Positions 3,877-20,311 of a DNA stretch of 33,696 nucleotides are shown in pieces. The notes under the pieces are model-generated. The model worked only from the letters and a program-made list of their open reading frames with translations. It was not told where the DNA came from and did no database searches. Each line of letters opens with the position of its first letter. The first letter of the stretch is position 1. Both the position numbers and the translations under genes were made by a program. The DNA is from a virus. Its lineage: Duplodnaviria > Heunggongvirae > Uroviricota > Caudoviricetes. The stretch spans positions 1 to 33,696 of IMG/VR virus record IMGVR_UViG_2690316109_000019; one strand, 5' to 3'.

Positions 3877-4695
3877 GTGAATAACGTTGTTCATTACCAC
3901 GGAACTCCTGTGTGGGGTGATGCAGGAAATGTTCATCGTATTGCTGTGAGTGGTGCAGGGGCATTTGTTTCCTATGCCCGGCCTGACCAACTCGTTGCCT
4001 CATTTAAACATGCTAAGTCCGTGGCGATTGATAATGGGGCTTTTTCAGCATGGAAAAGTGGCCTTGTTATCGACTGGCAGAAGTTTTATCAGTGGATTGC
4101 CCCTCATTATTATCATCCCAAACTGGCTTTCTTTGTCATACCTGATGTGGTGGACGGGGATGAGGCGGACAACGATGCGCTGATTAAAGCGTTGCCTCGT
4201 TGTTTTAGAGAAAAAGCTACTCCAGTCTGGCATCTGCATGAATCCTTGCAACGCCTTGTCGAACTTTGCCGGGAATGGCCTCGTGTTTGTTTTGGTTCTT
4301 CTGGCGATTACGCCACTGTCAGAACTGCACTCTGGCATAGCCGGATGCAGGATGCATTTGAAACCATTTATCTTAAATATGGTTTTAGTACCCGCATTCA
4401 TGGTCTGCGCATGCTTGATGGGCGCATTCTCGGTAATTATCCGCTGCATACAGCAGACAGCACTAACCTTGCCTGTAACGTACCAAAATATCTTATCAAA
4501 TATCCCGAACTGACAAGGGCAATCAGCGAGGCAGACTATACACAAAAACTTTCTGAGAAGGAGTTGAAGGCGTTCATCCTTAAAGGACGGTGTGCAATTC
4601 TGAAAAATTCTGTGGAGTCGGTTTTTCCTCCATCGATTGCTGAATGGGCATCAAATAGCCTTGCTCCATCACAAATGGAGTTAGCTTTCGCATGA
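3877..4695 (+). CDS. Putative TGT-fold protein, DpdA-like 7-deazaguanine DNA transglycosylase candidate
   Basis: 272 aa from a GTG start with an AGGGGA ribosome-binding site; motif pattern 'YHGTPVWG ... AFVSYARPDQ ... AIDNGAFSAW ... TADSTNL' parallels tRNA-guanine transglycosylase 'FMPVGTYG ... LGNTFHLWLRPGQ ... LTDSGGFQ ... DCVMPTRN' (from memory); stop overlaps the start of gene A (ATGA). Confidence 0.5.
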   Translation: MNNVVHYHGTPVWGDAGNVHRIAVSGAGAFVSYARPDQLVASFKHAKSVAIDNGAFSAWKSGLVIDWQKFYQWIAPHYYHPKLAFFVIPDVVDGDEADNDALIKALPRCFREKATPVWHLHESLQRLVELCREWPRVCFGSSGDYATVRTALWHSRMQDAFETIYLKYGFSTRIHGLRMLDGRILGNYPLHTADSTNLACNVPKYLIKYPELTRAISEADYTQKLSEKELKAFILKGRCAILKNSVESVFPPSIAEWASNSLAPSQMELAFA

Positions 4696-6905
4696 CGATT
4701 TATGCTTACTCCTGGAACAAACCAAATGAAGCAATAGGACGCGAAAGATCTCTTACACGTGACGAGATGCGTCAGGTGCAAGGTGTTTTATCCACGATTA
4801 ACCGCCTGCCTTACTTTTTGCGTTCGCTGTTTACTTCACGCTATGACTACATCCGGCGCAATAAAAGCCCGGTGCACGGGTTTTATTTCCTCACATCCAC
4901 TTTTCAGCGTCGTTTATGGCCGCGCATTGAGCGTGTGAATCAGCGCCATGAAATGAACACCGACGCGTCGTTGCTGTTTCTGGCAGAGCGTGACCACTAT
5001 GCGCGCCTGCCGGGAATGAATGACAAGGAGCTGAAAAAGTTTGCCGCCCGTATCTCATCGCAGCTTTTCATGATGTATGAGGAACTCAGCGATGCCTGGG
5101 TGGATGCACATGGCGAAAAAGAATCGCTGTTTACGGATGAGGCACAGGATCACCTCTATGGTCATGTTGCTGGCGCTGCACGTGCTTTCAATATTTCCCC
5201 GCTTTACTGGAAAAAATACCGTAAAGGACAGATGACCACGAGGCAGGCATATTCTGCCATTGCCCGCCTGTTTAACGATGAGTGGTGGACCCATCAGCTT
5301 AAAGGCCAGCGTATGCGCTGGCATGAGGCGTTACTGATTGCTGTCGGGGAGGTCAATAAAGACCGTTCACCTTATGCCAGTAAACATGCCATTCGTGATG
5401 TGCGTGCGCGCCGCCAGGCAAATCTGGAGTTTCTTAAATCGTGTGACCTTGAAAACAGGGAAACCGGCGAGCGCATCGACCTTATCAGTAAGGTGATGGG
5501 CAGTATTTCTAATCCTGAAATTCGCCGGATGGAGCTGATGAACACCATTGCCGGTATTGAGCGTTACGCCGCTGCAGAGGGTGATGTGGGGATGTTTATC
5601 ACGCTGACCGCGCCGTCAAAGTATCACCCGACACGTCAGGTCGGAAAAGGCGAAAGTAAAACCGTGCAGCTTAATCACGGTTGGAACGATGAGGCATTTA
5701 ATCCAAAGGATGCGCAGCGTTATCTCTGCCGTATCTGGAGCCTGATGCGCACGGCATTCAAGGATAATGATTTACAGGTCTACGGTTTGCGTGTCGTCGA
5801 GCCACACCACGACGGAACGCCGCACTGGCATATGATGCTTTTTTGTAATCCACGCCAGCGTAACCAGATTATCGAAATCATGCGTCGCTATGCGCTCAAA
5901 GAGGATGGTGACGAAAGAGGAGCCGCGCGAAACCGTTTTCAGGCAAAACACCTTAACCGGGGCGGTGCTGCGGGATATATCGCGAAATACATCTCAAAAA
6001 ATATCGACGGCTATGCACTGGATGGGCAGCTCGATAACGATACCGGCAGACCGCTGAAAGATACTGCCGCGGCTGTTACCGCATGGGCGTCAACGTGGCG
6101 CATTCCGCAATTTAAAACGGTTGGCCTGCCGACAATGGGGGCTTACCGTGAACTACGCAAATTGCCTCGCGGCGTCAGCATTGCTGATGAGTTTGACGAG
6201 CGCGTCGAGGCTGCACGCGCCGCCGCAGACAGTGGTGATTTTGCGCTGTATATCAGCGCGCAGGGTGGGGCAAATGTCCCGCGCGATTGTCAGACTGTCA
6301 GGGTTGCCCGTAGTCCGTCGGATGAAGTTAACGAGTACGAGGAAGAAGTCGAGAGAGTGGTCGGCATTTACGCGCCGCATCTCGGCGCGCGTCATATTCA
6401 TATCACCAGAACGACGGACTGGCGCATTGTTCCGAAAGTGCCGGTCGTTGAGCCTTTGACTTTAAAAAGCGGCATCGCCGCGCCTCGGAGTCCTGTCAAT
6501 AACTGTGGAAAGCTCACCGGTGGTGATACTTCGTTACCGGCTCCCACACCTTCTGAGCACGCCGCAGCAGTGCTTAATCTGGTAGATGACGGTGTTATCG
6601 AATGGAGTGACCCGGAGGTAGTGATGGTGCTCAGGGGCGCATTAAAACACGGACTGAGAACACCAAATCGTCAGCAAAGAAACGGAATCCCGTTAAAACC
6701 GCATGAAATTGCACCATCTGCCAGACTGACCAGGTCTGAACGATTGCAAATTACCCGTATCCGCGTTGACCTCGCTCAGAACGGTATCAGGCCGCAACGA
6801 TGGGAGCTTGAGGCGCTGGCGCGTGGCGCGACCGTAAATTATGACGGGAAAAAATTCACGTATCCGGTTGCTGATGAGTGGCCGGGGTTCTCGTTACCCA
6901 TTTGA
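4692..6905 (+). CDS. A: Replication initiation protein (rolling-circle nickase, P2 gpA family)
   Basis: 737 aa; HUH-type metal motif 'PHWHMMLF'; paired tyrosines in 'AKYISKNIDGYALDG'; size and position as in P2. Confidence 0.93.
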   Translation: MTIYAYSWNKPNEAIGRERSLTRDEMRQVQGVLSTINRLPYFLRSLFTSRYDYIRRNKSPVHGFYFLTSTFQRRLWPRIERVNQRHEMNTDASLLFLAERDHYARLPGMNDKELKKFAARISSQLFMMYEELSDAWVDAHGEKESLFTDEAQDHLYGHVAGAARAFNISPLYWKKYRKGQMTTRQAYSAIARLFNDEWWTHQLKGQRMRWHEALLIAVGEVNKDRSPYASKHAIRDVRARRQANLEFLKSCDLENRETGERIDLISKVMGSISNPEIRRMELMNTIAGIERYAAAEGDVGMFITLTAPSKYHPTRQVGKGESKTVQLNHGWNDEAFNPKDAQRYLCRIWSLMRTAFKDNDLQVYGLRVVEPHHDGTPHWHMMLFCNPRQRNQIIEIMRRYALKEDGDERGAARNRFQAKHLNRGGAAGYIAKYISKNIDGYALDGQLDNDTGRPLKDTAAAVTAWASTWRIPQFKTVGLPTMGAYRELRKLPRGVSIADEFDERVEAARAAADSGDFALYISAQGGANVPRDCQTVRVARSPSDEVNEYEEEVERVVGIYAPHLGARHIHITRTTDWRIVPKVPVVEPLTLKSGIAAPRSPVNNCGKLTGGDTSLPAPTPSEHAAAVLNLVDDGVIEWSDPEVVMVLRGALKHGLRTPNRQQRNGIPLKPHEIAPSARLTRSERLQITRIRVDLAQNGIRPQRWELEALARGATVNYDGKKFTYPVADEWPGFSLPI

Positions 6906-7165
6906 GTAAAAACACAACGTGATTTGATATGGCATTGAATGGCTTATGCGGAGCAGTTATGGGGCAGCAGAAGGTCAATAGCATGCTGAATTAGAAGGCT
7001 AAATGCTATTGAGTGACTAGCATGTCGGTAAGGACAGCCGTTTGATCCGGGTCATAAAAGGCCATCCATTTAGTCTAATAAAATCATTGCGGGTAACCTT
7101 ATGTCGACGCATAATTCGTCTTGAGCGAAGTCTTGTCAGTCTTTCATCGTATTGATGATGGGCGC

Positions 7166-7197
7166 AAAAAAACCACCCTGGCAGGTGGTTTTTTTGT
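7166..7197. terminator. Bidirectional rho-independent terminator
   Basis: 'aaaaaaaccaccctggcaggtggttttttt': GC stem accacc/ggtggt flanked by an A7 run and a T7 run, so it can terminate both the A operon and the minus-strand small ORF. Confidence 0.7.
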
Positions 7198-7207
7198 TTG
7201 AAGCATA

Positions 7208-7321
7208 TTAAAGCATAATGCTGACATTGATATTACTGACGTTTACTGACAAACCACTCGGACTACCGTTTGGATAGCCAAAGAGGGCCAGAACGAGAAT
7301 GCAGTAATAGCATTTCTTCAT
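7208..7321 (-). CDS. Small hydrophobic protein (37 aa), function unknown
   Basis: Perfect AGGAGG ribosome-binding site 5 nt upstream of the ATG (reverse complement of 'catattgcctcctg' at 7319-7332); peptide MKKCYYCILVLALFGYPNGSPSGLSVNVSNINVSIML; terminator immediately downstream. Confidence 0.5.
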   Translation of the reverse strand: MKKCYYCILVLALFGYPNGSPSGLSVNVSNINVSIML

Positions 7322-7799
7322 ATTGCCTCCTGTAAGTAGAGGGCAACTTCCACCGGTATATGCGCTTCTTAGGTGGAATGACTTTTGAGCGAAGTCTTGC
7401 CCTGAAATAATGCTCTGTTTAAACGCAAAGTGATTTGGCATATCACCGAACAGAGAGCCGGAAAAACACAACATATAGTATGTCGTTGTTTCTAGACATA
7501 CATTCTATGTTGTGTAACAAGGGCTTTGCATTAAACATGTTTGAGATTTTATTGATGTAGCTCAAAGTAAAAAACAGAGACTACGGATGATAAGGTCTTG
7601 AAAGCAATGTAAATTTTTTAAAGTTGCCAATTGCTTAAAAATGTACAGTTGCGGTATGGCGTACTTAAAAAGCTATGCATGCAACCAGTGAATGTTTTTG
7701 CATGCGCTGGGGATGTCCGTTCAGGCTGCGTGCGGTCAGGACTGGTGCGGATCCATAGTATCTATGCAACTGCATTAAAACCGCCCCGTGAAGCGGGCG

Positions 7800-7818
7800 G
7801 GCGAGGCGGGGAAAGCAC
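7800..7818. other. cos site: P2-type 19-nt cohesive-end sequence
   Basis: Exact match to GGCGAGGCGGGGAAAGCAC, recalled as the P2 cohesive end; lies between gene A and portal gene Q as expected for a P2-like prophage. Confidence 0.7.
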
Positions 7819-7911
7819 TGCGCGCGAGGCCTGCAACCACCAGTGTCATCTTTTTGGAAATATGCTAAAGTATTCATAAGGTTGGATATCTGGCGTACAG
7901 TGAGATAGTTT

Positions 7912-9240
7912 ATGCGTATAAAAATTAATAATTTTGGAACTATTGCAGAAGCTGATGTTTCAGTTGGTGGTTTAACTGTCATAACTGGTGAAAATGATAC
8001 GGGGAAGAGTACCGTAGGGAAAATATTGTTTTCAATGGTAAAGGCGATATCTCGTTATCAAGAGGATTTAGAAGAAGACAAAGAGGATAGAATTACATCT
8101 ATCGTAGAGAAAATATATTTTAATCTGCGTAGGAGGATTAATATTGCTGCTACGCCGGAAATTAGAGAGTTATTCAATCCAAGAAAGTTTTATGCCTCTC
8201 TAAAAATAGATATCTCTAAAACTTTGGCTGAGAGAGAGAGTTATCTATATAATTTGATTGAGGAAGGGCTTCTTCCAGAATTGATGGCTGATTCTGTACT
8301 CTCTGATATAAGAAAAATCAGAGATATAATGCTTGAGCCAGATGATGAGCTATCTGCTATCAACCGTGCTCTGCGTAAGGCCTTTTACTCTGAATTTAGA
8401 GGCGAAATTATTCAGAAGGGTAATCAAAATCCAGTTAAAGCATCTCTGGAAGTTGTTGATGGTGTTAGTCAGTTAATTGATATTAAATGGACTAAAGATG
8501 GTATATCACAATTTGATTATACTGATGGCTTAGGATATGTCGACGCAACCTATGTTGACTCTCCAAGTATTATGCAATTTCATAATTTGGTTCGTTTTGC
8601 TAAAACTTTATTTGATAGTAATGGTGAATCAGGACGTCTAACTGTTCCATTGCATGTGAAAGATCTATCAATAAAATTAAGCGATTCAGTTTATAATTTA
8701 TTTGTGCATTCGGATATTTTTGATGATGGCTCATTTTTAAAAGAGTCACTGCGTATATCTAACAAAATCAATGCTACTTTCTGTGGTGAAGTGGTTTATG
8801 ATATTGAAAAGAATGATTTTTTTCTAGAGAAGCAAGGCTATAAAGTCACATCGGGTAATATTGCGTCAGGAATAAAGTCTTTAGGTATTCTTGATATGCT
8901 TGTTAAGTGCGGGGCAGCAGTAGATAACTCGTTACTGATTATTGATGAGCCAGAGGTGAACTTACATCCAAAATGGCAGGTTTTCTATGCTGAGATTATT
9001 TGTGAGTTAGTGTCTATGGGGGTTGATATAATAATTACAACACATAGCCCGTATATTATTGATGCTCTTAAACATTATAGCGATAAAATTGGGATTGAAA
9101 ATCGGTTCTATATAAGCGAGCGATTCCCTGGGGAAGAGTTTACATCTTTTGTTGATATTACTGATAATGTTGCATATGCAATTAATCTTTTGGCATCACC
9201 ATTAAAAGAATTGAATCAGGAGTATTTGGATGATTTCTAA
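7912..9240 (+). CDS. ABC-type (AAA_15/AAA_21-like) ATPase, candidate defence-system component
   Basis: 442 aa; Walker A 'GENDTGKST' at residues 26-34; ABC-signature-like 'VTSGNIASG'; Walker B 'LLIIDEPEVNLHP'; H-loop 'IITTHSPYIID'; about 300 residues inserted between Walker A and Walker B, as in SMC/RecF-like defence ATPases; AT-rich relative to the phage backbone. Confidence 0.85.
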   Translation: MRIKINNFGTIAEADVSVGGLTVITGENDTGKSTVGKILFSMVKAISRYQEDLEEDKEDRITSIVEKIYFNLRRRINIAATPEIRELFNPRKFYASLKIDISKTLAERESYLYNLIEEGLLPELMADSVLSDIRKIRDIMLEPDDELSAINRALRKAFYSEFRGEIIQKGNQNPVKASLEVVDGVSQLIDIKWTKDGISQFDYTDGLGYVDATYVDSPSIMQFHNLVRFAKTLFDSNGESGRLTVPLHVKDLSIKLSDSVYNLFVHSDIFDDGSFLKESLRISNKINATFCGEVVYDIEKNDFFLEKQGYKVTSGNIASGIKSLGILDMLVKCGAAVDNSLLIIDEPEVNLHPKWQVFYAEIICELVSMGVDIIITTHSPYIIDALKHYSDKIGIENRFYISERFPGEEFTSFVDITDNVAYAINLLASPLKELNQEYLDDF

Positions 9241-9847
9241 TGAGGAACTTGTTTTTAGAAAACTGTGTGAAGTATACCCTGATTCAATGGTTGATGTAAC
9301 CGGATTAAGCTACAATGATGCAGGGGCTCGGAATTTTATTATTTGTGATTCGAAGGGCTTTAACTATGATACGGTGTTAAATTGCTCGCCTGTTTATAAG
9401 CGTGAGTTTAAAGAAAAATCACCGGATGCTTTATTTTTATATGAAGATAAATTGTACTTCATTGAATTTAAAGAAGGACGTTCACAAAAGGATGATATAA
9501 GGTTGAAAATACATGAAGGTGTTACGACTTTATTTCATTTTGTATGTAAACACCTTCCAGAGTTGACAAGGCAAAATTTTGTAGAGCTTAATTTAAATTA
9601 TGCTGTCGTTTGTAGAGCTAGTGGACATAGAGATATGCGCAGTTCGGCAATGATTGCTGCTCTTGAGAACTCAAGTCAGCGATACAGCTTGAAAAATCTT
9701 GAGGGATTTATAATCAAGAAAACAGCAGTCATGGAGGAGCCTCAACAAATATTGAAGTTCCTTAACAAAATAAGTGCCGGAAAAGTAACATCGATTACTG
9801 TGTTTGAACACTTGGGGCAAACAGAAACGTTTTGCCTATCTGCTTGA
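9230..9847 (+). CDS. Partner protein of the ATPase (205 aa), possible nuclease effector
   Basis: AGGAG ribosome-binding site 8 nt upstream; 11-nt overlap with the ATPase gene (operon); possible degenerate HNH-like segment 'CKHLP...NLNYAVVCRASGH' or PD-(D/E)xK-like 'YEDKLYFIEFK'; neither motif is confirmed. Confidence 0.7.
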   Translation: MISNEELVFRKLCEVYPDSMVDVTGLSYNDAGARNFIICDSKGFNYDTVLNCSPVYKREFKEKSPDALFLYEDKLYFIEFKEGRSQKDDIRLKIHEGVTTLFHFVCKHLPELTRQNFVELNLNYAVVCRASGHRDMRSSAMIAALENSSQRYSLKNLEGFIIKKTAVMEEPQQILKFLNKISAGKVTSITVFEHLGQTETFCLSA

Positions 9848-9852
9848 TCTTA

Positions 9853-9876
9853 CAGGCTTTGGTGAGCCAAAGCCTG
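9853..9876. terminator. Perfect hairpin between convergent genes (cargo operon and Q)
   Basis: 'caggctttgg tgag ccaaagcctg': 10-bp perfect stem, 4-nt loop; no strong T-run. Confidence 0.5.
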
Positions 9877-9882
9877 CAGGGT

Positions 9883-10902
9883 TTATAACGAGTAATTGTT
9901 AAATGTTATAACTGTTTCACCTATCCATGAGTTCAATTCCTTCATTCGCGATTGTAGATGCCCTAACTCATTCCTGACAAAAACTTTAGCCGCTTTAACT
10001 ACATCGCCAAATCCTCCCGCATTATTAGGCATCATCCCCATCATTTGCGGGGGGACTCGATGGGCACTCATTAGATCTTCCGCGCTGGCTTTTTTGATAT
10101 TAAAAAAATCGTCCTTCGTCGCCACTTCACTGAGCGGGATAATTTTAATGCCGTCGGCTTTTCCCTGTGGGGCATAGAGAAACAGATTTTTAAAGTTGTT
10201 GCGGCCTTTCGACTTGACCATGTTTTCGCGAAGCATTTCGATATCGTTGCGGTCCTGCACGGCATCAGTGACGTACATGATGTATCCGGCATGTGCGCCA
10301 TTTTCGTAATACTTGCGGCGGAACAGCGTGGCCGACTCATTCAGCCAGGCAGAGTTAAGGGCGCTGAGATATTCCGGCAGGCCGTACAGTTCCTGATTAA
10401 TATCCGGCTCCAGCAGGTGAAACACGGAGCCGGGCGCGAAGGCTGTCGGCTCGTTGAAGGACGGCACCCACCAGTAAACATCCTCTTCCACACCACGGCG
10501 GGTATATTTTGCCGGTGAGGTTTCCAGCCTGATAACTTTACCGGTGGTGCTGTAACGCTTTTCCAGAAACGCATTACCGAACACCAGAAAATCCAGCACA
10601 AAGCGGCTGAAATCCTGCTGGGAAAGCCACGGATGCGGGATAAATGTCGACGCCAGAATATTGCGTTTGACGTAAATCGGTGAGCTGTGATGCACGGCAG
10701 CACGCAGGCTTTTTGCCAGACCGGTAAAGCTGACCGGTGGCTCATACCATCTGCCGTTACTGATGCATTCGACGTAATCCAGAATGTCACGGCGGTCGAG
10801 TACCGGCACCGGCTCGCCAAAGGTGAATGCCTCCATTTTCGGGGTGCTGGCGGTCATTTTTTTTGCCGCAGGTTGCGGTGTTTTCCCTTTTTTCTTGCTC
10901 AT
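9883..10902 (-). CDS. Q: Portal protein
   Basis: 339 aa; positioned next to cos and the terminase gene; ATGA overlap with P; P2 gpQ-like size. Confidence 0.9.
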   Translation of the reverse strand: MSKKKGKTPQPAAKKMTASTPKMEAFTFGEPVPVLDRRDILDYVECISNGRWYEPPVSFTGLAKSLRAAVHHSSPIYVKRNILASTFIPHPWLSQQDFSRFVLDFLVFGNAFLEKRYSTTGKVIRLETSPAKYTRRGVEEDVYWWVPSFNEPTAFAPGSVFHLLEPDINQELYGLPEYLSALNSAWLNESATLFRRKYYENGAHAGYIMYVTDAVQDRNDIEMLRENMVKSKGRNNFKNLFLYAPQGKADGIKIIPLSEVATKDDFFNIKKASAEDLMSAHRVPPQMMGMMPNNAGGFGDVVKAAKVFVRNELGHLQSRMKELNSWIGETVITFNNYSL

Positions 10903-12674
10903 CAGTAAAACTCCAGAATGGTGGATGTCAGCGGGGTGCTGATACCGGCGGTGAGTGGCTCATTTAACAGGGCGTGCATGGTCGCCCAGGCGAGGTCGGC
11001 GTGGCTGGCTTCCTCGCTGCGGCTGGCCTCATAGGTGGCGCTGCGTCCGCTGCTGGTCATGGTCTTGCGGATAGCCATAAACGAGCTGGTGATGTCGGTG
11101 GCGCTGACGTCATATTCCAGACAGCCACGGCGAATAACGTCTTTTGCCTTGAGCACCATTGCGGTTTTCATTTCCGGCGTGTAGCGGATATCGCGCGCGG
11201 CGGGATAGAACGAGCGAACGAGCTGGAACACGCCGACACCGAGGCCGGTGGCATCAATTCCGATGTATTCGACGTTGTATTTTTCGGTGAGTTTGCGGAT
11301 GGATTCAGCCTGGGTGGCAAAGTCCATGCCTTTCCACTGGTGACGCTCAAGTATTCTGAATTTGCCACCGGCCACCACCGGCGGTGCCAGCACCACGCAT
11401 CCGGCACTGTCGCCACGGTGTGACGGGTCGTAACCAATCCATACCGGACGTGAGCCGAACGGATTGGCGGCAAACGGCGCATAGTCTTCCCATTCTTCCA
11501 GCGTGTCGACCATGCAGCGTTGCAGCTCCTCGAACGGGAACACCGACGCCTTGTCGTCAACAAATTCACACATGAACAGGTTTTTAAAATCGTCGGCGCT
11601 GTTTTCACGTTTGAGCTGCTCAATGTCGAACAGTGTGCAGCCACCTTTCAGGGCATCCTCAATGGTGACAATCTGCCGCCACTGGCCGTCCGCACAGAGA
11701 AGACCACCGGCAAGGGCGTTATGACTGACGTCGATTTCCACGCGTTCGGCGGCGCTGGCGCGTCCCCGGTTGAACAGTTCACCTGACCAGAACGGGTAGG
11801 CGTCGTGCGCCAGCGTGGACGGGGTGGAGAAATAGGTCGAGCGCAGGTGACTCTGTGAGGCCATACCTGATGCCACCTTACGCAGTACCTGAAAATTCGG
11901 GATCCAGAAAATCTCGTCGACGTACAGGTCGCCGTTATGGCTCTGCGCGGTGTTGGAGTTGGTGCCGAGAAAAATTAGTTTTGCGCCGTTATTGCCCAGG
12001 ACAATCGGGTCACCGGTCAGGTCAACGTCAACCAGACGGGCAAAGGCGATGATGTATTCGCGGAACACATACGCCTGCGTTTTACTGGCCGACAGAAAAA
12101 TCTGGTTATGGCCGGTTTTCAGGGCGCGCAGCAGCGCCTCGCGGGAAAAATAAAACGTTGCGCCAATCTGGCGGGATTTCAGTATATCGCGGATGCGGTG
12201 CTCAAGCCCGGCGCGATACCAGTGCAACTGATAGTCGAAAGACTGCTCAAAGAAAATCTGCTCCAGCTTTTCGATGGCTTCGTCACTGAAAAAATTCTTT
12301 TTCGGTTTGCGACGCTCGCCTTTGTTGCGGTTAGCGACGTTCGGATTAAGGTCTGCCTCGTTGCCGGTCTGACTGTAGCGGTTTACCCGTGCCAGTCGTT
12401 CAATCTGGCGTCCGAGCAGGTCAATTTCCTTGAAGTCACCGCCGGTTTTCTGCGGTTTGATGATGAGCTGGGTCAGCCGCGCTTCCAGGCTCATTTCGAC
12501 ACGGCTGATGGGGGCAACGCTGTCCCAGCCGTCGCGCTGTTTCCAGCTCTGCACCGTCGGGCGTTTCATCTGCAACATGGCGGCAATCTGCGGCACGGAA
12601 AACCCCTGCCAGTACAGCAGCGCCGCCTGACGACGCGGGTCGTGTAAAAGAGTGGTGTCTGTGGTGATGGTCAT
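10902..12674 (-). CDS. P: Terminase large subunit (ATPase)
   Basis: 590 aa from the ATG at 12674 (GAGGT ribosome-binding site), the same length as P2 gpP; divergent from O across a late-promoter region. Confidence 0.9.
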   Translation of the reverse strand: MTITTDTTLLHDPRRQAALLYWQGFSVPQIAAMLQMKRPTVQSWKQRDGWDSVAPISRVEMSLEARLTQLIIKPQKTGGDFKEIDLLGRQIERLARVNRYSQTGNEADLNPNVANRNKGERRKPKKNFFSDEAIEKLEQIFFEQSFDYQLHWYRAGLEHRIRDILKSRQIGATFYFSREALLRALKTGHNQIFLSASKTQAYVFREYIIAFARLVDVDLTGDPIVLGNNGAKLIFLGTNSNTAQSHNGDLYVDEIFWIPNFQVLRKVASGMASQSHLRSTYFSTPSTLAHDAYPFWSGELFNRGRASAAERVEIDVSHNALAGGLLCADGQWRQIVTIEDALKGGCTLFDIEQLKRENSADDFKNLFMCEFVDDKASVFPFEELQRCMVDTLEEWEDYAPFAANPFGSRPVWIGYDPSHRGDSAGCVVLAPPVVAGGKFRILERHQWKGMDFATQAESIRKLTEKYNVEYIGIDATGLGVGVFQLVRSFYPAARDIRYTPEMKTAMVLKAKDVIRRGCLEYDVSATDITSSFMAIRKTMTSSGRSATYEASRSEEASHADLAWATMHALLNEPLTAGISTPLTSTILEFY

Positions 12675-12847
12675 GAATACCTCGCCGTGATGAATACACG
12701 GCAAGGCTACTGAGTCGCGCCCCGCGATTCGCTAAGGTGCTGTTGTGTCAGCGATAAGCCATCCGGGACTGATGGCGGAGGATGCGCATCGTCGGGAAAC
12801 TGATGCCGACATGTGACTCCTCTAATCACTATTCAGGACTCCTGACA

Positions 12848-13702
12848 ATGGCAAAAAAAGTCTCAAAATTCTTTCGTATCGGCGTTGAGGGTGACACCTG
12901 TGACGGGCGTGTCATCAGTGCGCAGGATATTCAGGAAATGGCGGAAACCTTTGACCCGCGTGTCTATGGTTGCCGCATTAACCTGGAACATCTGCGCGGC
13001 ATCCTGCCTGACGGTATTTTTAAACGTTATGGCGATGTGGCCGAACTGAAGGCCGAAAAGATTGATGACGATTCGGCGCTGAAAGGCAAATGGGCGCTGT
13101 TTGCGAAAATCACCCCGACCGATGACCTTATCGCGATGAACAAGGCCGCGCAGAAGGTCTACACCTCAATGGAAATTCAGCCGAACTTTGCCAATACCGG
13201 CAAATGTTATCTGGTGGGGCTGGCTGTCACCGATGACCCGGCAAGCCTCGGCACGGAATACCTGGAATTCTGCCGCACGGCAAAACACAACCCCCTGAAC
13301 CGCTTCAAATTAAGCCCTGAAAATCTGATTTCAGTGGCAACGCCCGTTGAGCTGGAATTTGAAGACCTGCCTGAAACCGTGTTCACCGCCCTGACCGAAA
13401 AGGTGAAATCCATTTTTGGCCGCAAACAGGCCAGCGATGACGCCCGTCTGAATGACGTGCATGAAGCGGTGACCGCTGTCGCTGAACATGTGCAGGAAAA
13501 ACTGAGCGCCACTGAGCAGCGCCTCGCTGAGATGGAAACTGCCTTTTCCGCACTTAAGCAGGATGTGACTGACAGGGCGGATGAAACCAGTCAGGCATTC
13601 ACCCGCCTGAAAAACAGTCTCGACCACACCGAAAGTCTGACCCAGCAGCGCCGCAGCAAAGCCACCGGCGGTGGCGGTGACGCCCTGATGACGAACTGCT
13701 GA
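12848..13702 (+). CDS. O: Capsid scaffolding protein
   Basis: 284 aa from the ATG at 12848 (MAKKVSKFFRIGVEGDTCDGR...), P2 gpO-like in size and N-terminus. Confidence 0.88.
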   Translation: MAKKVSKFFRIGVEGDTCDGRVISAQDIQEMAETFDPRVYGCRINLEHLRGILPDGIFKRYGDVAELKAEKIDDDSALKGKWALFAKITPTDDLIAMNKAAQKVYTSMEIQPNFANTGKCYLVGLAVTDDPASLGTEYLEFCRTAKHNPLNRFKLSPENLISVATPVELEFEDLPETVFTALTEKVKSIFGRKQASDDARLNDVHEAVTAVAEHVQEKLSATEQRLAEMETAFSALKQDVTDRADETSQAFTRLKNSLDHTESLTQQRRSKATGGGGDALMTNC

Positions 13703-13760
13703 CCGGCGTCAGTCAGTCCGGGAAAACCTTCACGATTAACCCTTAATTTCAGGAAAAACT

Positions 13761-14834
13761 ATGCGCCAGGAAACCCGCTTTAAATTTAATGCCTATCTGT
13801 CCCGTGTTGCCGAACTGAACGGCATCGACGCCGGTGATGTGTCGAAAAAATTCACCGTTGAACCGTCGGTCACCCAGACCCTGATGAACACCATGCAGGA
13901 GTCCTCTGATTTTCTGACCCGCATCAACATTGTGCCGGTCAGCGAAATGAAAGGGGAAAAAATTGGCATCGGTGTCACCGGCTCCATCGCCAGCACCACC
14001 GACACCGCCGGTGGCACCGAGCGTCAGCCGAAGGACTTCTCGAAGCTGGCGTCAAACAAGTACGAATGCGACCAGATTAACTTCGATTTTTATATCCGCT
14101 ACAAAACGCTGGACCTGTGGGCGCGTTATCAGGATTTCCAGCTCCGTGTCCGTAATGCCATTATCAAACGCCAGTCCCTTGATTTAATCATGGCCGGTTT
14201 TAACGGCGTGAGGCGTGCCGAAACCTCTGACCGCAGCAGTAACCCGATGCTGCAGGATGTGGCGGTCGGCTGGCTGCAGAAATACCGCAATGAAGCCCCG
14301 GCGCGCGTGATGAGCAAGGTTACTGACGAGGAAGGTCACACGACCTCTGAGGTCATCCGCGTGGGTAAGGGCGGTGATTATGCCAGCCTCGATGCACTGG
14401 TGATGGATGCGACCAACAACCTGATTGAGCCGTGGTATCAGGAAGACCCTGACCTTGTGGTGATTGTGGGGCGTCAGCTACTGGCGGACAAGTATTTCCC
14501 CATCGTTAACAAGGAGCAGGACAACAGCGAAATGCTGGCCGCTGACGTCATCATCAGCCAGAAACGCATCGGTAACCTGCCGGCGGTACGCGTCCCGTAC
14601 TTCCCGGCGGATGCGATGCTCATCACGAAGCTGGAAAACCTGTCCATCTACTACATGGATGACAGCCATCGCCGCGTGATTGTGGAAAACCCGAAACTCG
14701 ACCGCGTGGAGAACTACGAGTCAATGAACATTGATTACGTGGTGGAAGACTACGCCGCCGGTTGTCTGGTGGAAAAAATTAAGGTCGGTGACTTCTCCAC
14801 ACCGACTAAAGTGACCGCAGAGCCGGGAGCGTAA
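13761..14834 (+). CDS. N: Major capsid protein
   Basis: 357 aa, same length as P2 gpN; follows O. Confidence 0.92.
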   Translation: MRQETRFKFNAYLSRVAELNGIDAGDVSKKFTVEPSVTQTLMNTMQESSDFLTRINIVPVSEMKGEKIGIGVTGSIASTTDTAGGTERQPKDFSKLASNKYECDQINFDFYIRYKTLDLWARYQDFQLRVRNAIIKRQSLDLIMAGFNGVRRAETSDRSSNPMLQDVAVGWLQKYRNEAPARVMSKVTDEEGHTTSEVIRVGKGGDYASLDALVMDATNNLIEPWYQEDPDLVVIVGRQLLADKYFPIVNKEQDNSEMLAADVIISQKRIGNLPAVRVPYFPADAMLITKLENLSIYYMDDSHRRVIVENPKLDRVENYESMNIDYVVEDYAAGCLVEKIKVGDFSTPTKVTAEPGA

Positions 14835-14837
14835 CCG

Positions 14838-15581
14838 ATGATGAGTCCCGCACAGCGCCACATGATGCGGGTCTCGGCAGCGATGACCGCGCAGCGGGAC
14901 GCCGCCCCGCTGCGACATGCAACTGTCTATGAGCAGATGCTGGTCAAGCTGGCCGCAGACCAGCGCACACTGAAAGCGATTTATTCAAAAGAGCTGAAGG
15001 CCGCGAAAAAACGCGAACTGCTGCCGTTCTGGTTGCCGTGGGTGAACGGTGTGCTGGAGCAGGGCAAAGGTGCACAGGATGACATTCTGATGACGGTCAT
15101 GCTGTGGCGTCTGGATACCGGCGATATTGCCGGTGCGCTGGAGATTGCCCGTTATGCCCTGAAGTACGGTCTGACCATGCCGGGTAAACACCGCCGCACC
15201 CCGCCGTACATGTTCACCGAGGAGGTGGCGCTCGCGGCCATGCGCGCCCACGCTGCCGGTGAGTCTGTGGATACCCGCCTGCTGACGGAGACCCTTGCAC
15301 TGACCGCCACGGCAGACATGCCTGATGAAGTGCGCGCAAAGCTGCACAAAATCACCGGTCTGTTTCTGCGTGACGCTGGTGATGCCGCCGGTGCGCTGGC
15401 TCACCTGCAACGTGCGACACAGCTCGACTGTCAGGCAGGCGTCAAAAAAGAGATTGAACGACTGGAGCGGGAGCTGAAACCGAAGCCGGAGCCGCAGCCC
15501 AAAGCGGCCACCAGTGCCACGCGTAAGACCCGGAGTGCGACACCGGCAAAACGTGGACGCCCGAAAAAGAAAGCCAGTTAA
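14838..15581 (+). CDS. M: Terminase small subunit (endonuclease subunit)
   Basis: 247 aa, same length as P2 gpM; basic Lys/Arg-rich C-terminal tail. Confidence 0.88.
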   Translation: MMSPAQRHMMRVSAAMTAQRDAAPLRHATVYEQMLVKLAADQRTLKAIYSKELKAAKKRELLPFWLPWVNGVLEQGKGAQDDILMTVMLWRLDTGDIAGALEIARYALKYGLTMPGKHRRTPPYMFTEEVALAAMRAHAAGESVDTRLLTETLALTATADMPDEVRAKLHKITGLFLRDAGDAAGALAHLQRATQLDCQAGVKKEIERLERELKPKPEPQPKAATSATRKTRSATPAKRGRPKKKAS

Positions 15582-15680
15582 CAACCGAATGCGCCCCGCG
15601 CCAGGGCGGCACGCCGGTCTGTGAGGGTGAATCACCTGACACTGTACCGGCGTCCACCGCCCGACTTTTCAGAGGTAGTC

Positions 15681-16190
15681 ATGATGACGCTGATTATTCC
15701 GCGAAAGGAGGCTCCCGTGTCTGGTGAGGGTACGGTGGTCATCCCGCAACCGGCAGGCGACGAGCCGGTGATTAAAAACACGTTCTTTTTTCCCGATATC
15801 GACCCGAAGCGCGTCCGGGAACGTATGCGCCTTGAGCAGACCGTCGCCCCCGCCCGTCTGCGTGAGGCCATCAAGTCAGGCATGGCTGAAACGAATGCGG
15901 AGCTGTACGAGTACCGCGAACAGAAAATTGCTGCCGGTTTTACGCGTCTGGCGGACGTCCCGGCGGACGACATCGACGGTGAAAGCATCAAAGTTTTTTA
16001 CTACGAGCGCGCCGTGTGTGCGATGGCGACCGCGTCGCTTTATGAGCGTTATCGCGGTGTGGATGCCAGTGCGAAAGGCGACAAGAAGGCTGACAGCATT
16101 GACAGCACCATCGATGAACTGTGGCGGGATATGCGCTGGGCAGTGGCGCGCATCCAGGACAAGCCGCGCTGCATCGTGAGTCAAATCTGA
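15681..16190 (+). CDS. L: Head completion / stabilisation protein
   Basis: About 169 aa from ATG 15681 or 15684 (AGAGG ribosome-binding site); the upstream GTG extension is rejected. Confidence 0.82.
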   Translation: MMTLIIPRKEAPVSGEGTVVIPQPAGDEPVIKNTFFFPDIDPKRVRERMRLEQTVAPARLREAIKSGMAETNAELYEYREQKIAAGFTRLADVPADDIDGESIKVFYYERAVCAMATASLYERYRGVDASAKGDKKADSIDSTIDELWRDMRWAVARIQDKPRCIVSQI

Positions 16191-16393
16191 TGAAGACCTT
16201 TGCGCTACAGGGCGACACGCTCGACGCCATTTGTGTCCGGTATTACGGGCGCACTGAGGGCGTGGTCGAGGCCGTGCTCGCCGCAAATCCGGGACTGGCT
16301 GAACTGGGTGCGGTGCTGCCACACGGCACCGCCGTCGAACTGCCCGACGTTCAGACCGCGCCCGTGGCTGAAACTGTCAATCTGTGGGAGTAA
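16190..16393 (+). CDS. X: Tail protein X
   Basis: 67 aa (MKTFALQGDTLDAICVRYYG...), ATGA overlap with L; same size as P2 gpX. Confidence 0.82.
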   Translation: MKTFALQGDTLDAICVRYYGRTEGVVEAVLAANPGLAELGAVLPHGTAVELPDVQTAPVAETVNLWE

Positions 16394-16396
16394 CGC

Positions 16397-16678
16397 ATGA
16401 CAGCAGAAGAAAAAAGCGTCCTGTCGCTTTTCATGATTGGGGTGCTGATTGTTGTCGGCAAGGTGCTTGCCGGTGGTGAACCCATCACCCCGCGTCTGTT
16501 TATCGGGCGCATGTTGCTCGGTGGTTTTGTCTCAATGGTTGCCGGTGTTGTTCTGGTGCAGTTTCCTGACCTGTCACTGCCTGCGGTGTGCGGCATTGGC
16601 TCCATGCTGGGTATCGCCGGTTATCAGGTGATTGAGATTGCCATTCAGCGCCGCTTTAAGGGCAGGGGGAAACAGTAA
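16397..16678 (+). CDS. Y: Holin
   Basis: 93 aa with several hydrophobic transmembrane segments and a charged C-terminus; first gene of the lysis cassette. Confidence 0.85.
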   Translation: MTAEEKSVLSLFMIGVLIVVGKVLAGGEPITPRLFIGRMLLGGFVSMVAGVVLVQFPDLSLPAVCGIGSMLGIAGYQVIEIAIQRRFKGRGKQ

Positions 16679-17175
16679 TGCCGGTAATTAAAACACATCA
16701 GAATATCGCCGCCTTTCTCGACATGCTGGCCGTGTCCGAAGGGACGGCGAATCATCCGCTGACGAAAAACCGGGGCTATGACGTGATAGTCACCGGACTG
16801 GACGGGAAGCCGGAAATTTTCACCGACTACAGTGACCACCCGTTCGCGCATGGCCGACCGGCGAAGGTATTTAACCGTCGCGGTGAAAAGTCCACGGCCT
16901 CCGGTCGCTATCAGCAGCTTTACCTGTTCTGGCCGCACTACCGCAAACAGCTTGCCCTGCCGGATTTCAGTCCGTTGTCACAGGACAGGCTCGCCATTCA
17001 GTTGATCCGCGAACGCGGTGCACTGGATGACATCCGGGCGGGACGCATTGAGCGCGCCATTTCACGCTGTCGCAATATCTGGGCGTCCCTGCCGGGAGCC
17101 GGTTACGGTCAGCGTGAGCATTCACTGGAAAAACTGGTCACCGTCTGGCGTACCGCTGGCGGCGTACCGGCTTAA
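16678..17175 (+). CDS. K: Endolysin (lysozyme-like)
   Basis: 165 aa, same length as P2 gpK; immediately follows the holin. Confidence 0.88.
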   Translation: MPVIKTHQNIAAFLDMLAVSEGTANHPLTKNRGYDVIVTGLDGKPEIFTDYSDHPFAHGRPAKVFNRRGEKSTASGRYQQLYLFWPHYRKQLALPDFSPLSQDRLAIQLIRERGALDDIRAGRIERAISRCRNIWASLPGAGYGQREHSLEKLVTVWRTAGGVPA

Positions 17176-17189
17176 ACGGAGTAAACACC

Positions 17190-17615
17190 ATGAAGAAATT
17201 ATCCCTTTCACTGATGCTGAACGTGTCGCTGGCGCTGATGCTGGCACTGTCCCTGATTTACCCGCAGAGCGTGGCCGTCAGTTTTGTCGCCACCTGGGCG
17301 ATTCTGGCGACGGTTATCTGTGTGGTTGCCGGTGGTGTCGGCGTGTATGCCACTGAGTATGTGCTGGAACGCTACGGGCGGGAGCTGCCGCCGGAATCGC
17401 TGGCCGTGAAGATTGTCACGGCGCTGTTTTTGCAGCCGGTGCCGTGGCGCAGACGGGCGGCGGCTCTGGTGGTGATGGTGGCGACGTTTATCTCGCTGGT
17501 CGCTGCCGGGTGGATTTTTACCGCGCTGATTTATCTTGTGACGTCGCTGTTTTTCCGGCTGATACGTAAAGCCTGTCGTCAGCGTCTTGAGGGGCGGGAA
17601 CCATGTCAAAGCTGA
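17190..17615 (+). CDS. lysA: LysA, membrane protein regulating lysis timing
   Basis: 141 aa, highly hydrophobic multi-pass; P2 LysA size and position. Confidence 0.75.
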   Translation: MKKLSLSLMLNVSLALMLALSLIYPQSVAVSFVATWAILATVICVVAGGVGVYATEYVLERYGRELPPESLAVKIVTALFLQPVPWRRRAAALVVMVATFISLVAAGWIFTALIYLVTSLFFRLIRKACRQRLEGREPCQS

Positions 17616-18028
17616 TGATTGTGCTGGTCGTGTTGTTATCGCTGGCGGTGGCGGGGCTGTTTCTGGCGAAGCATGAAAACGCCAGCCTGCGCACCTCACT
17701 GGACAGGGCGAACAGCGTCGCCAGCGGGCAGCAGACGACCATCACCATACTGAAAAACCAGCTTCATGTTGCCCTCACCAGAGCAGACAAAAACGAGCTG
17801 GCGCAGGTGGCACTGCGTCAGGAACTGGAGAACGCCGCGAAGCGTGAAGCACAGCGCGAGAAAACCATCACGAGGTTACTGAATGAAAACGAAGATTTTC
17901 GCCGCTGGTACGGCGCTGGCCTGCCTGATGCTGTGCGCCGGTTGCACCAGCGCCCGGCCTGCGCCGACGCCAGTGATTGTTCACAACGCCTGTCCGAAAG
18001 TGAGCCTTTGCCCGATGCCGGGCAGTGA
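17603..18028 (+). CDS. lysB: LysB, Rz-like inner-membrane spanin
   Basis: 141 aa with an N-terminal transmembrane helix followed by a coiled-coil-like region. Confidence 0.75.
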   Translation: MSKLMIVLVVLLSLAVAGLFLAKHENASLRTSLDRANSVASGQQTTITILKNQLHVALTRADKNELAQVALRQELENAAKREAQREKTITRLLNENEDFRRWYGAGLPDAVRRLHQRPACADASDCSQRLSESEPLPDAGQ

Positions 18029-20225: not shown

Positions 20226-20311
20226 AATGGATTTTGTTGTCCCTTGTTGTTCTGTGCACCAGAAATCGTGGTGTGATTTACTTCGAGATTGTACAGAATC
20301 ATTATTATCGA

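What the first reader, a model, noticed from the sequence alone, without database searches (positions are those of the whole stretch)
7912..9847. Two-gene AT-rich cassette (ABC-type ATPase + 205-aa partner) inserted between cos and the portal gene: candidate unclassified anti-phage system
Seen in sequence: a 442-aa protein with N-terminal Walker A (GENDTGKST), C-terminal Walker B (LLIIDEPE) and an H-loop (TTHSP), separated by about 300 residues. That is the SMC/RecF-like ABC ATPase layout of the AAA_15/AAA_21 type. Its gene overlaps by 11 nt a 205-aa ORF that has its own AGGAG ribosome-binding site. The pair is strikingly AT-rich against a backbone of roughly 50% GC, and it is followed by a perfect hairpin. 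Established knowledge: P2 carries its accessory genes tin and old next to cos in this part of the genome, and P2-like phages are known to hold exchangeable defence cargo here; AAA_15/21 ATPases paired with a small nuclease define several defence families (Septu PtuA/PtuB, PARIS AriA/AriB, AbiL, OLD/Gabija-like). Inference: the partner may be a nuclease, with either a degenerate HNH-like segment (CKHLP...NLNYAVVCRASGH) or a PD-(D/E)xK-like segment (YEDKLYFIEFK). Neither is a confident match. At 205 aa the partner looks too small for the DUF4435/Toprim PARIS effector as I recall it, so this may be a divergent or undescribed family. The cassette lies on the Q side of cos, whereas as I recall P2 tin/old lie on the A side.
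Basis: partly seen in the sequence, partly recalled or inferred. Interest (0 to 1): 0.85.

Follow-up and report, generated by a model that had tools for sequence, protein, structure and literature searches.

The report
ATPase-plus-nuclease defence cassette in P2 prophage
A P2-like E. coli prophage carries, between its packaging site and its portal gene, a rare two-gene module (an ABC-type ATPase plus a small restriction-enzyme-fold nuclease) that is very probably an anti-phage system of a known design, with an effector family that no current database recognises and that nobody has tested.

Summary
Two overlapping + strand genes (7912-9240, 442 aa; 9230-9847, 205 aa; GC 0.35 against about 0.56 in the late genes) lie between an exact P2 cos 19-mer (7800-7818) and the portal gene Q.

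Protein A is an AAA_15/AAA_21 ABC ATPase. Its best PADLOC hits are HEC-02A and PD-T4-4_A, and its model resembles PtuA, Rad50 and SMC heads.

Protein B matches no Pfam, NCBIfam or PADLOC model. Its family keeps an invariant PD...ExK motif (D66, E79, K81), and its confident model resembles only restriction-fold nucleases, weakly. The HNH reading is rejected.

The pair is mobile cargo. It occurs in 8 of 5426 complete E. coli genomes. The same overlapping pair is found in a Yersinia P2-like prophage, an array of small cassettes in Vibrio cholerae, an integrase island, a transposase-flanked Pseudomonas locus and another slot of a P2-like remnant.

It is not undescribed. Rousset et al. 2022 list this exact pair as P2-hotspot system 73 (57 occurrences), and it is absent from their tables of cloned systems.

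The design, an ABC ATPase plus a small PD-(D/E)xK nuclease, is validated in WonAB, PD-T4-4 and HEC-02. Sequence membership in those families failed.

Verdict: a real, probable abortive-infection defence system; a new variant of a known kind; moderate interest.

The parts
4692..6905 (+). Replication endonuclease gpA: the left boundary of the P2 gpA-gpQ hotspot (flank, not part of the system)
   Evidence: 737-aa ORF. RefSeq annotates the identical prophage gene as 'replication endonuclease'. The hotspot is defined in PMC9122126.
7800..7818 (+). P2 cos 19-nt cohesive-end sequence; conserved cos flank runs about 7700-7826
   Evidence: Exact single match to GGCGAGGCGGGGAAAGCAC. It aligns with P2 cosL through position 26 and then diverges. 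The flank at 7700-7830 is shared with 2128 E. coli genomes.
7827..7911 (+). AT-rich leader of the cassette; presumed own promoter and 5' UTR (inferred, not shown)
   Evidence: Homology to other P2-like phages stops at about 7826-7830. The consensus scan found no promoter-like site here.
7912..9240 (+). Gene A: 442-aa OLD/SMC-type ABC ATPase. Walker A at nt 7987-8013 (K32), Walker B at nt 8932-8955 (D345, E346), H-loop at nt 9037-9051 (H378).
   Evidence: Pfam AAA_15 7e-19 and AAA_21 1.7e-18. PADLOC HEC-02A 1.8e-33, PD-T4-4_A 1.7e-30. All three motifs are invariant in 46 homologues. AF2 pLDDT 87.9. Foldseek finds PtuA, Rad50, SMC and OLD, best E 3e-9.
9218..9222 (+). AGGAG ribosome-binding site of gene B, inside the 3' end of gene A
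   Evidence: Read from the sequence.
9230..9847 (+). Gene B: 205-aa PD-(D/E)xK (restriction-endonuclease-fold) protein, the predicted nuclease effector. Catalytic hairpin P65-D66...E79-F80-K81 is at nt 9422-9472.
9853..9876 (.). Perfect 10-bp/4-nt-loop hairpin between the convergent B and Q stops, in the position of P2's tQ terminator
   Evidence: The terminator scan did not call it because it lacks a T-run.
9883..10902 (-). Portal protein gpQ: the right boundary of the hotspot (flank)
   Evidence: 339-aa ORF. RefSeq annotates it 'phage portal protein'.

Best explanation
The cassette is a prophage-borne, two-gene anti-phage defence module. It has the same design as WonAB, PD-T4-4 and HEC-02.

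- **Protein A** is an OLD/SMC-type ABC ATPase with a roughly 130-residue helical insert. It most likely dimerises head-to-head around two ATP molecules and acts as the sensor and regulator.
- **Protein B** is a small metal-dependent PD-(D/E)xK nuclease with catalytic D66, E79 and K81, and conserved D47 and K93. It most likely binds A and is the effector.
- **Proposed action:** on an infection cue, ATP binding or hydrolysis by A licenses B to cut nucleic acid. That stops phage development, probably through growth arrest or abortive infection rather than self/non-self restriction.

**Shown here:** gene structure, ABC ATPase identity, the PD-(D/E)xK motif and fold, obligatory A-B pairing, mobility, and location in the hotspot.

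**Inferred by analogy only:** A-B complex formation, ATP gating, the trigger, the substrate (DNA or RNA), and the abortive outcome.
For: **Location and mobility**
- The cassette lies in the P2 gpA-gpQ cos-proximal hotspot, which is experimentally shown to hold many defence systems (PMC9122126; PMC9519451).
- It is rare and variable. It occurs in 8 of 5426 complete E. coli genomes, while 2128 carry the cos flank. Rousset's catalogue counts 57 occurrences among 18,150 hotspot loci.
- GC is 0.35 against 0.56 in the late genes.

**Obligatory pairing**
- The same ATPase-then-B pair, with an 8-14 nt overlap, recurs in unrelated mobile contexts:
  - a Yersinia P2/186-like prophage, in the same slot (L009);
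  - an array of small cassette-like genes in Vibrio cholerae, which I read as integron-like (L007);
  - an integrase island (L005);
  - a locus next to a Tn5-type transposase in Pseudomonas (L003);
  - the S-V slot of a Janthinobacterium P2-like remnant (L011);
  - Sulfurovum (L012);
  - a metagenomic contig carrying a remote relative (L013).

**Protein A**
- Pfam AAA_15/AAA_21.
- The PADLOC top hits are the ATPases of nuclease-partnered systems: HEC-02A 1.8e-33 and PD-T4-4_A 1.7e-30.
- Walker A, Walker B and H-loop are invariant.
- The structure model matches PtuA, Rad50 and SMC heads.

**Protein B**
- PD...ExK is invariant across 36 close and 50 remote relatives.
- The model is confident.
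- The top hits in both structure searches are almost all PD-(D/E)xK nucleases.
- Some remote relatives touch HEC-02B and Cas4 models.

**Analogues with experimental proof**
- WonAB needs both genes, the ATPase motifs and the nuclease lysine. It aborts infection by blocking translation without degrading DNA (PMC12137116).
- HEC-02 needs both genes.
- PD-T4-4 is classed among the PD-(D/E)xK nuclease-NTPase systems.
Against: - No experiment exists for this pair. Its sequences are absent from Rousset's tables of cloned and tested systems.
- B gives no significant sequence or profile match to any validated effector: hhalign probability is 8-11% against WonB and 1-8% against HEC-02B, and PADLOC finds no PD-T4-4_B hit.
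- No promoter was identified.
- A-B complex formation was not modelled.
- Some hotspot cargo is not defence, for example partition systems and toxins.
Confidence: 0.65

Rival explanations
1. A restriction-like, non-abortive system. The SMC/Rad50-like ATPase loads on or scans invading DNA (as in Gabija, Lamassu or Wadjet), and B cleaves the phage DNA directly, so the cell survives.
For: The model of A matches Rad50, SMC and PtuA heads. The structural neighbours of B are mostly DNA endonucleases: PspGI, FokI, Bse634I, McrC and NucS.
Confidence: 0.2
2. A toxin-antitoxin or addiction module whose main role is to stabilise the prophage or mobile element. B would be the toxin and A its antitoxin, with any phage defence incidental.
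For: The genes overlap and are tightly co-inherited on mobile elements. WonB is toxic when overproduced. Pfam names AAA_21 'putative AbiEii toxin, Type IV TA system'.
Against: In WonAB, WonB toxicity requires WonA and its ATPase activity, which rules out simple sequestration. The module sits in defence hotspots and among cassette-like genes rather than next to replication or partition genes.
Confidence: 0.08
3. A core or accessory phage function, such as DNA repair, recombination, packaging or host takeover, rather than defence.
For: It lies directly next to cos and the packaging genes. ABC ATPase plus nuclease pairs such as SbcCD and Rad50-Mre11 act in DNA metabolism; phrog_77, annotated as an SbcC-like subunit, gives a weak hit at E 0.016.
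Against: It is present in only 8 of the 2128 E. coli genomes that carry the cos flank, and 1535 genomes have no cargo at all between cos and Q. No record in the phage collection carries it. It occurs outside phages. P2 itself lacks it.
Confidence: 0.03
4. A member of an already named family: PARIS, Septu, Gabija/OLD, WonAB, PD-T4-4 or HEC-02.
For: A hits the AriA, PtuA, Old, HEC-02A and PD-T4-4_A models. A few remote relatives of B weakly hit HEC-02B models, best E 4e-5.
Against: B has no DUF4435/Toprim, no HNH, and no PD-T4-4_B, HEC-02B or WonB match. A has no fused Toprim domain. The pair is absent from the stored parts of the WonAB and 'Novel REase' hit tables.
Confidence: 0.04

Closest known systems
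WonAB (Vibrio cholerae WASA-1 prophage; Adams et al. [quoted passage not shown]
   Same: Both are prophage-borne two-gene operons with the ATPase first, followed by a small PD-(D/E)xK protein. The catalytic hairpin has the same spacing: WonB CD-x13-ELK against B PD-x12-EFK, and these residues align in hhalign. In WonAB the Walker A lysine, Walker B glutamate, H-loop histidine and the nuclease lysine are all needed.
   Different: WonB is about 145 aa and B is 205 aa, with extra N- and C-terminal elements. Profile comparison aligns only 26-41 columns at 8-11% probability, and cross hmmsearch scores are at most 10.7 bits. A is only 28% identical to an E. coli WonA over the C-terminal 100 aa. In WonA the Walker B glutamate is E300, against E346 in A.
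HEC-02 (ABC ATPase + NERD-type PD-(D/E)xK protein; Payne et al. 2024, bioRxiv 10.1101/2024.01.29.577857)
   Same: HEC-02A is the best PADLOC match for A (1.8e-33). It has the same two-gene logic, and both genes are required for defence. Five of 51 remote B relatives weakly hit HEC-02B models.
   Different: Window B hits no HEC-02B model even at E<=1. hhalign against Dickeya HEC-02B gives 1-8% probability, over the catalytic hairpin only. HEC-02A is 342 aa against 442 aa for A, and is 32% identical only over the 92-aa C-lobe.
PD-T4-4 (Vassallo et al. 2022, PMC9519451)
   Same: The ATPase model is the second-best PADLOC hit for A (1.7e-30). The system is classed as a PD-(D/E)xK nuclease plus P-loop NTPase and forms higher-order complexes.
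   Different: Neither B nor its 50 remote relatives hit a PD-T4-4_B model. PD-T4-4 was found on an ICE-like element, not in the P2 hotspot.
PARIS (AriA/AriB), Septu (PtuA/PtuB), and P2 Old / Gabija
   Same: All use an AAA_15/AAA_21 ABC ATPase as sensor. PARIS and Old are cargo of the P4 and P2 hotspots.
   Different: Their effectors are Toprim/DUF4435 (AriB, Old, GajA) or HNH (PtuB). B is a PD-(D/E)xK protein and hits none of these.
P2 hotspot system 73, 'AAA_15/AAA_21' (Rousset et al. 2022, Table S5B)
   Same: Identical protein sequences, WP_001220547 and WP_000624949.
   Different: It is only a catalogue entry. The partner is listed as 'hypothetical', no nuclease assignment is given, and no test is reported.

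Membership tests
ABC ATPase, AAA_15/AAA_21 (OLD/SMC-like) clade (protein A) | Pfam AAA_15/AAA_21 match above the gathering score, with Walker A, Walker B and H-loop split by a long insert | tested here: met
   AAA_15 scores 69.1 bits (cut-off 32.1) and AAA_21 scores 68.2 bits (cut-off 27). K32, D345/E346 and H378 are invariant in 46 homologues.
ABC ATPase, AAA_15/AAA_21 (OLD/SMC-like) clade (protein A) | ABC head fold | tested here: met
   The AF2 model has pLDDT 87.9. Foldseek probability is 1.00 to PtuA, Rad50, SMC heads and OLD, with E from 3e-9 to 7e-7 and TM about 0.4.
PD-(D/E)xK nuclease superfamily (protein B) | Conserved D...(D/E)xK catalytic motif on a beta-hairpin | tested here: met
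   P65-D66...E79-F80-K81 is invariant in 36 family members. D66, E79, F80, K81 and K93 are invariant in 51 sequences at 17-27% identity. The model places D66 and ExK on adjacent strands 67-71 and 74-81.
PD-(D/E)xK nuclease superfamily (protein B) | Restriction-endonuclease-like alpha/beta fold | tested here: met
PD-(D/E)xK nuclease superfamily (protein B) | Metal-dependent nuclease activity | not testable with these tools
   Needs purified protein.
PARIS (AriA/AriB) | Effector AriB with a DUF4435/Toprim domain | tested here: not met
   B has no DUF4435 or Toprim hit in Pfam or PADLOC at E<=1. B has a PD-(D/E)xK fold.
Septu (PtuA/PtuB) | HNH nuclease partner | tested here: not met
   There is no HNH hit. 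The candidate Cys/His residues C106, H108, C128 and H133 are not conserved.
OLD / Gabija | Toprim nuclease fused to the ATPase (plus a UvrD-like helicase in Gabija) | tested here: not met
   A ends at 442 aa with no Toprim domain. The PADLOC Old hit covers only the ATPase C-lobe. There is no helicase gene in the cassette.
[quoted passage not shown] | Two-gene operon: ABC ATPase followed by a small PD-(D/E)xK protein | tested here: met
[quoted passage not shown] | Sequence or profile homology of the effector to WonB / 'Novel REase' | tested here: not met
   hhalign probability is 11% (A1) and 8% (A4), aligning only the catalytic hairpin. hmmsearch scores are at most 10.7 bits in either direction. 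The pair is absent from the stored rows of Supplementary Tables 4 and 5, but Table 5 is only partly stored.
HEC-02 | HEC-02A ATPase model match | tested here: met
   PDLC04214 gives 1.8e-33, but its best stretch covers only aa 273-396. A is 32% identical to Dickeya HEC-02A over 92 aa.
HEC-02 | HEC-02B (NERD-like) effector model match | tested here: not met
   Window B has no hit at E<=1. Five of 51 remote relatives hit weakly, best E 4.1e-5. hhalign against Dickeya HEC-02B gives 1-8% probability. No Pfam family, including NERD, hits B at E<=1 or its relatives at E<=1e-3.
PD-T4-4 | Both PD-T4-4_A and PD-T4-4_B model matches | tested here: not met
   A gives 1.7e-30. B and its 50 relatives have no PD-T4-4_B hit.
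P2 gpA-gpQ (cos-proximal) defence hotspot cargo | Located between gpA and gpQ of a P2-like prophage, and variable among otherwise similar prophages | tested here: met
   gpA is at 4692-6905, cos at 7800-7818 and Q at 9883-10902. The cassette occurs in 8 genomes, while 2128 carry the cos flank. It is listed as system 73 in Rousset Table S5B.
Anti-phage defence system (functional class) | Reduces phage plaquing when expressed, and loses this in catalytic mutants | not testable with these tools
   No report was found. The sequences are absent from Rousset's tables of cloned systems, and full-text searches for the accessions and PHROG ids returned nothing.

The most novel reading that the evidence does not exclude
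B and its relatives would form a distinct, fairly large family of ABC-ATPase-coupled PD-(D/E)xK effectors. The exhaustive search found 618 representatives at 50% identity, nearly all of the best 150 being about 170-210 aa; every full-length member whose context was checked follows an AAA_15/21 ATPase. PADLOC 2.0 and Pfam miss this family entirely. The pair would then be a separately named abortive-infection system. Its nuclease might be an ATP-gated RNase acting on tRNA or rRNA, as suspected for WonB, rather than a DNA endonuclease.
Probability: 0.3. Interest if true: 0.55.

Novelty: new variant of a known kind. Interest (0 to 1): 0.42.

Why it matters
If the pair protects against phages, it adds a third or fourth independent effector lineage to the 'ABC ATPase + small PD-(D/E)xK nuclease' design.

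That would show that this ATPase scaffold has been re-paired repeatedly with very divergent restriction-fold nucleases.

It would also give defence-finding tools a model for a family they currently miss, which has hundreds of clusters across Gamma- and Betaproteobacteria and Campylobacterota.

It is a small, clonable (about 2 kb), natively E. coli system. That makes it a convenient comparison with WonAB for two open questions: what ABC ATPase sensors detect, and whether these nucleases target DNA or RNA.

It does not open a new kind of biology.

Tried and rejected
- **HNH reading of B:** rejected, because the Cys/His residues are not conserved.
- **PARIS, Septu, Gabija/OLD membership:** rejected on the effector domain.
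- **Sequence membership in WonB, HEC-02B or PD-T4-4_B:** tested with PADLOC, hhalign and local hmmsearch. Only the catalytic hairpin aligns.
- **Solved-structure sequence search for B:** nothing meaningful.
- **Foldseek against AFDB50:** the library was unavailable.
- **Phage collection:** no record carries the cassette, although PHROGs has both families (phrog_14430, phrog_25533), each of unknown function.
- **Literature searches:** the accessions and PHROG ids found no papers. Searches for WonAB and HEC-02, and text look-ups in two recent discovery papers, showed no one naming this pair.
- **Krishnan et al. 2020 (ABC ATPase survey):** could not be read.
- **P2 cos 19-mer in other loci:** it was not found in the Yersinia prophage locus, so the side of cos there is unknown.
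- **Promoter and terminator scans:** no convincing promoter for the cassette, and the hairpin was not called as a terminator.
Full report

Yes. The ORF list gives 7912..9240 (+, 442 aa) and 9230..9847 (+, 205 aa), overlapping by 11 nt.

A script located the ATPase motifs and other sequence features:
- Walker A GENDTGKS at residues 26-33 (K32).
- Walker B LLIIDE at 341-346.
- H-loop THS at 377-379.
- A perfect 10-bp/4-nt hairpin at 9853-9876.
- Cassette GC of 0.349, against 0.564 for the late genes at 9883-18600.

AGGAG lies 7 nt upstream of the ATG of gene B.

The P2 cohesive-end 19-mer is present once, exactly, at 7800-7818. The cassette therefore sits between cos and the portal gene Q (9883..10902, minus strand), with the replication gene A at 4692..6905.

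In P2 itself only about 160 bp, including the tQ terminator, separate cos from Q. Homology between the window and P2 stops 26 nt into cos. The hairpin occupies the tQ position. It lacks a T-run, and the terminator scan did not call it.

**2. What are the two proteins?**

*Protein A*
- It passes the Pfam thresholds for AAA_15 and AAA_21.
- In PADLOC its best matches are the ATPase subunits of nuclease-partnered systems: HEC-02A 1.8e-33, PD-T4-4_A 1.7e-30 and candidate PDC-M47A. AriA, PtuA and Old score lower.
- In an alignment of 46 homologues the Walker A, Walker B and H-loop residues are invariant.
- The AlphaFold model (pLDDT 87.9) shows an ABC head with a helical insert at about residues 32-162.
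- Foldseek matches PtuA (Septu and retron effectors), Rad50, SMC heads and OLD with probability 1.0 but TM of only about 0.4.
- Sequence search of the PDB finds only the C-lobe of OLD, AriA and PtuA.

*Protein B*
- It has no Pfam, NCBIfam or PADLOC family. Its only strong match is PHROG 25533, of unknown function.
- A word-index search found 64 clusters of about 200 aa.
- In 36 aligned members P65-D66 and E79-F80-K81 are invariant, together with G83, R91, K93, D47 and N51.
- An exhaustive HMM search found 618 representatives (E<=1e-3) at the 50%-identity level. Nearly all of the best 150 are about 170-210 aa.
- In 50 of these, at 17-27% identity to B, D66, E79, F80, K81 and K93 remain invariant.
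- The AlphaFold model is confident (pLDDT 85, pTM 0.83). It puts D66 and ExK on adjacent strands followed by a long helix.
- The top Foldseek matches are Hef/XPF, BspD6I, HincII and bunyavirus cap-snatching endonucleases, none significant.
- B is therefore a PD-(D/E)xK protein with an intact active site and no close solved relative.

**3. Is it cargo, and is the pair a unit?**

Only 8 of 5426 complete E. coli genomes carry the cassette, while 2128 carry the adjacent cos flank. 1535 genomes have the uninterrupted P2-type cos-spacer-Q junction. No record in the phage collection has the cassette.

The ATPase-then-B arrangement, with an 8-14 nt overlap, recurs in many places:
- a Yersinia enterocolitica P2/186-like prophage, in the same gpA-portal slot (L009);
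- an array of small acetyltransferase, glyoxalase and DUF genes in Vibrio cholerae, which I read as an integron-like cassette array (L007);
- next to an integrase in a gammaproteobacterial island (L005);
- next to a Tn5-type transposase in Pseudomonas (L003);
- between the S and V genes of a Janthinobacterium P2-like remnant, where the partner matches the B profile at E 1.8e-68 (L011);
- Sulfurovum, where the partner matches at probability 92% (L012);
- upstream of a remote B relative on a metagenomic contig, where the preceding fragment is 32% identical to the C-terminal 170 residues of A (L013).

The two genes are thus an old, co-inherited, horizontally mobile module.

**4. What is already known?**

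The gpA-gpQ interval is the P2 defence hotspot described by Rousset et al. 2022 (PMC9122126) and confirmed by Vassallo et al. 2022 (PMC9519451).

RefSeq names the proteins WP_001220547 ('AAA family ATPase') and WP_000624949 ('hypothetical protein'). Both accessions appear together in Rousset's Table S5A. Both full sequences form system 73, 'AAA_15/AAA_21', in Table S5B, with 57 occurrences. The sequences are absent from the tables of cloned systems.

The pair is therefore catalogued, but I found no test or annotation of the partner.

The architecture has three validated examples:
- **WonAB** is an ABC ATPase plus a roughly 145-aa PD-(D/E)xK protein.
  - Both genes, the ATPase motifs and the nuclease lysine are required.
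  - Infection is aborted with translation arrest and without DNA degradation.
  - WonB is Lon-labile, and it is toxic only in the presence of active WonA (PMC12137116).
- **HEC-02** is an ABC ATPase plus a NERD-type PD-(D/E)xK protein, with both genes required.
- **PD-T4-4** is classed among the PD-(D/E)xK nuclease-NTPase systems.

**5. Membership tests**

I took WonB and WonA sequences from Supplementary Table 4 of the WonAB paper. I took the Dickeya HEC-02 proteins from Table S2 of the HEC paper.

- *B against WonB:* profile-profile comparison of the B family with 11 WonB sequences aligns only the catalytic hairpin, putting D66/E79/K81 on D55/E70/K72. Probability is 11% with the close family and 8% with the broad alignment.
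- *B against HEC-02B:* probability is 1-8%.
- *Cross hmmsearch:* scores are at most 10.7 bits.
- *PADLOC:* no HEC-02B or PD-T4-4_B hit for B. Five of 51 remote relatives touch HEC-02B models weakly, and one touches Cas4.
- *A against the other ATPases:* A is 28% identical to an E. coli WonA and 32% identical to HEC-02A, over the C-lobe only.

The cassette works like these systems in design, but it is not demonstrably a member of any of them. PARIS, Septu and OLD/Gabija are excluded by the effector domain.

**6. Mechanism**

*Best supported (confidence about 0.65).* An ABC ATPase dimer senses an infection cue and, through ATP binding or hydrolysis, licenses the PD-(D/E)xK partner to cut nucleic acid. 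That arrests the infected cell.

*Shown:* the domains, the intact active sites, the pairing, the mobility and the hotspot location.

*Inferred from WonAB, HEC-02 and PD-T4-4:* the complex, the gating, the substrate and the abortive outcome.

*Rivals:*
- direct DNA restriction (0.2);
- a toxin-antitoxin or addiction role (0.08);
- a phage life-cycle function (0.03), which is contradicted by rarity and by non-phage contexts;
- hidden membership of a named family (0.04).

**7. Novelty and score**

This is a new variant of a known kind. The hotspot, the ATPase clade and the ATPase-plus-restriction-fold-nuclease logic are all established, and the exact pair is in a published catalogue.

What is new:
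- the assignment of the partner as an intact PD-(D/E)xK nuclease;
- the recognition that it heads a sizeable family unseen by Pfam and PADLOC 2.0, whose checked members all follow an ABC ATPase;
- the minority layout, with the cargo on the Q side of cos while the classical tin/old side (6906-7799) is almost empty.

A specialist would find it plausible and useful but not surprising. Interest is 0.42.

Noticed in passing
window 25874-26839 (+): A 321-aa AT-rich gene between the tail-fibre-assembly-like ORF (25054-25581) and the sheath-like ORF (27094-28284), which is the P2 Z/fun slot. It has an N-terminal TIR_2 domain (PF13676, 6.4e-21) and PADLOC hits to PDC-S66 (4e-11) and ThsB-like models. 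It is a second candidate defence gene in the same prophage.
   Followed up: partly
window 19152-20321 (-): A 389-aa ORF in a GC 0.33 island between the S-like gene (18596-19048) and the baseplate genes, which is the P2 orf30 slot. It has no Pfam or PADLOC match. It is a third piece of orphan cargo.
   Followed up: partly
window 7165-7332 (-): Between gpA and cos, where P2 has tin/old, there is only a 37-aa hydrophobic ORF (7208-7321, MKKCYYCILVLALFGYPNGSPSGL...). It has a strong AGGAGG site and is followed by a hairpin with T-runs at 7165-7195. RefSeq does not annotate it. The 6906-7700 stretch is 86-88% identical to three P2-like phage records.
   Followed up: partly
L011 5001-6876 (Janthinobacterium): The homologous ATPase + B pair sits between the S-like and V-like genes of a P2-like remnant. 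The same module therefore occupies a different P2 cargo slot in another host class.
   Followed up: yes
L007 1980-3861 (Vibrio cholerae): A 45%-identical pair lies in an array of short, same-strand cassette-like genes (acetyltransferases, glyoxalase, DUF4144). This looks like the chromosomal superintegron. No attC sites were checked.
   Followed up: no
window 7800-9883 compared with E. coli genomes: About 72% (1535 of 2128) of E. coli genomes with a P2-type cos flank have nothing between cos and Q. Cargo on the Q side of cos is a minority layout within the hotspot. What the remaining genomes hold there was not surveyed.
   Followed up: partly
L009 1-698 (Yersinia prophage): The Yersinia P2/186-like prophage that carries the pair also has a second gene with AAA_21, AAA_15 and SMC_N hits. 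It lies at the locus edge beside the CI-repressor-like gene and is cut off there.
   Followed up: no
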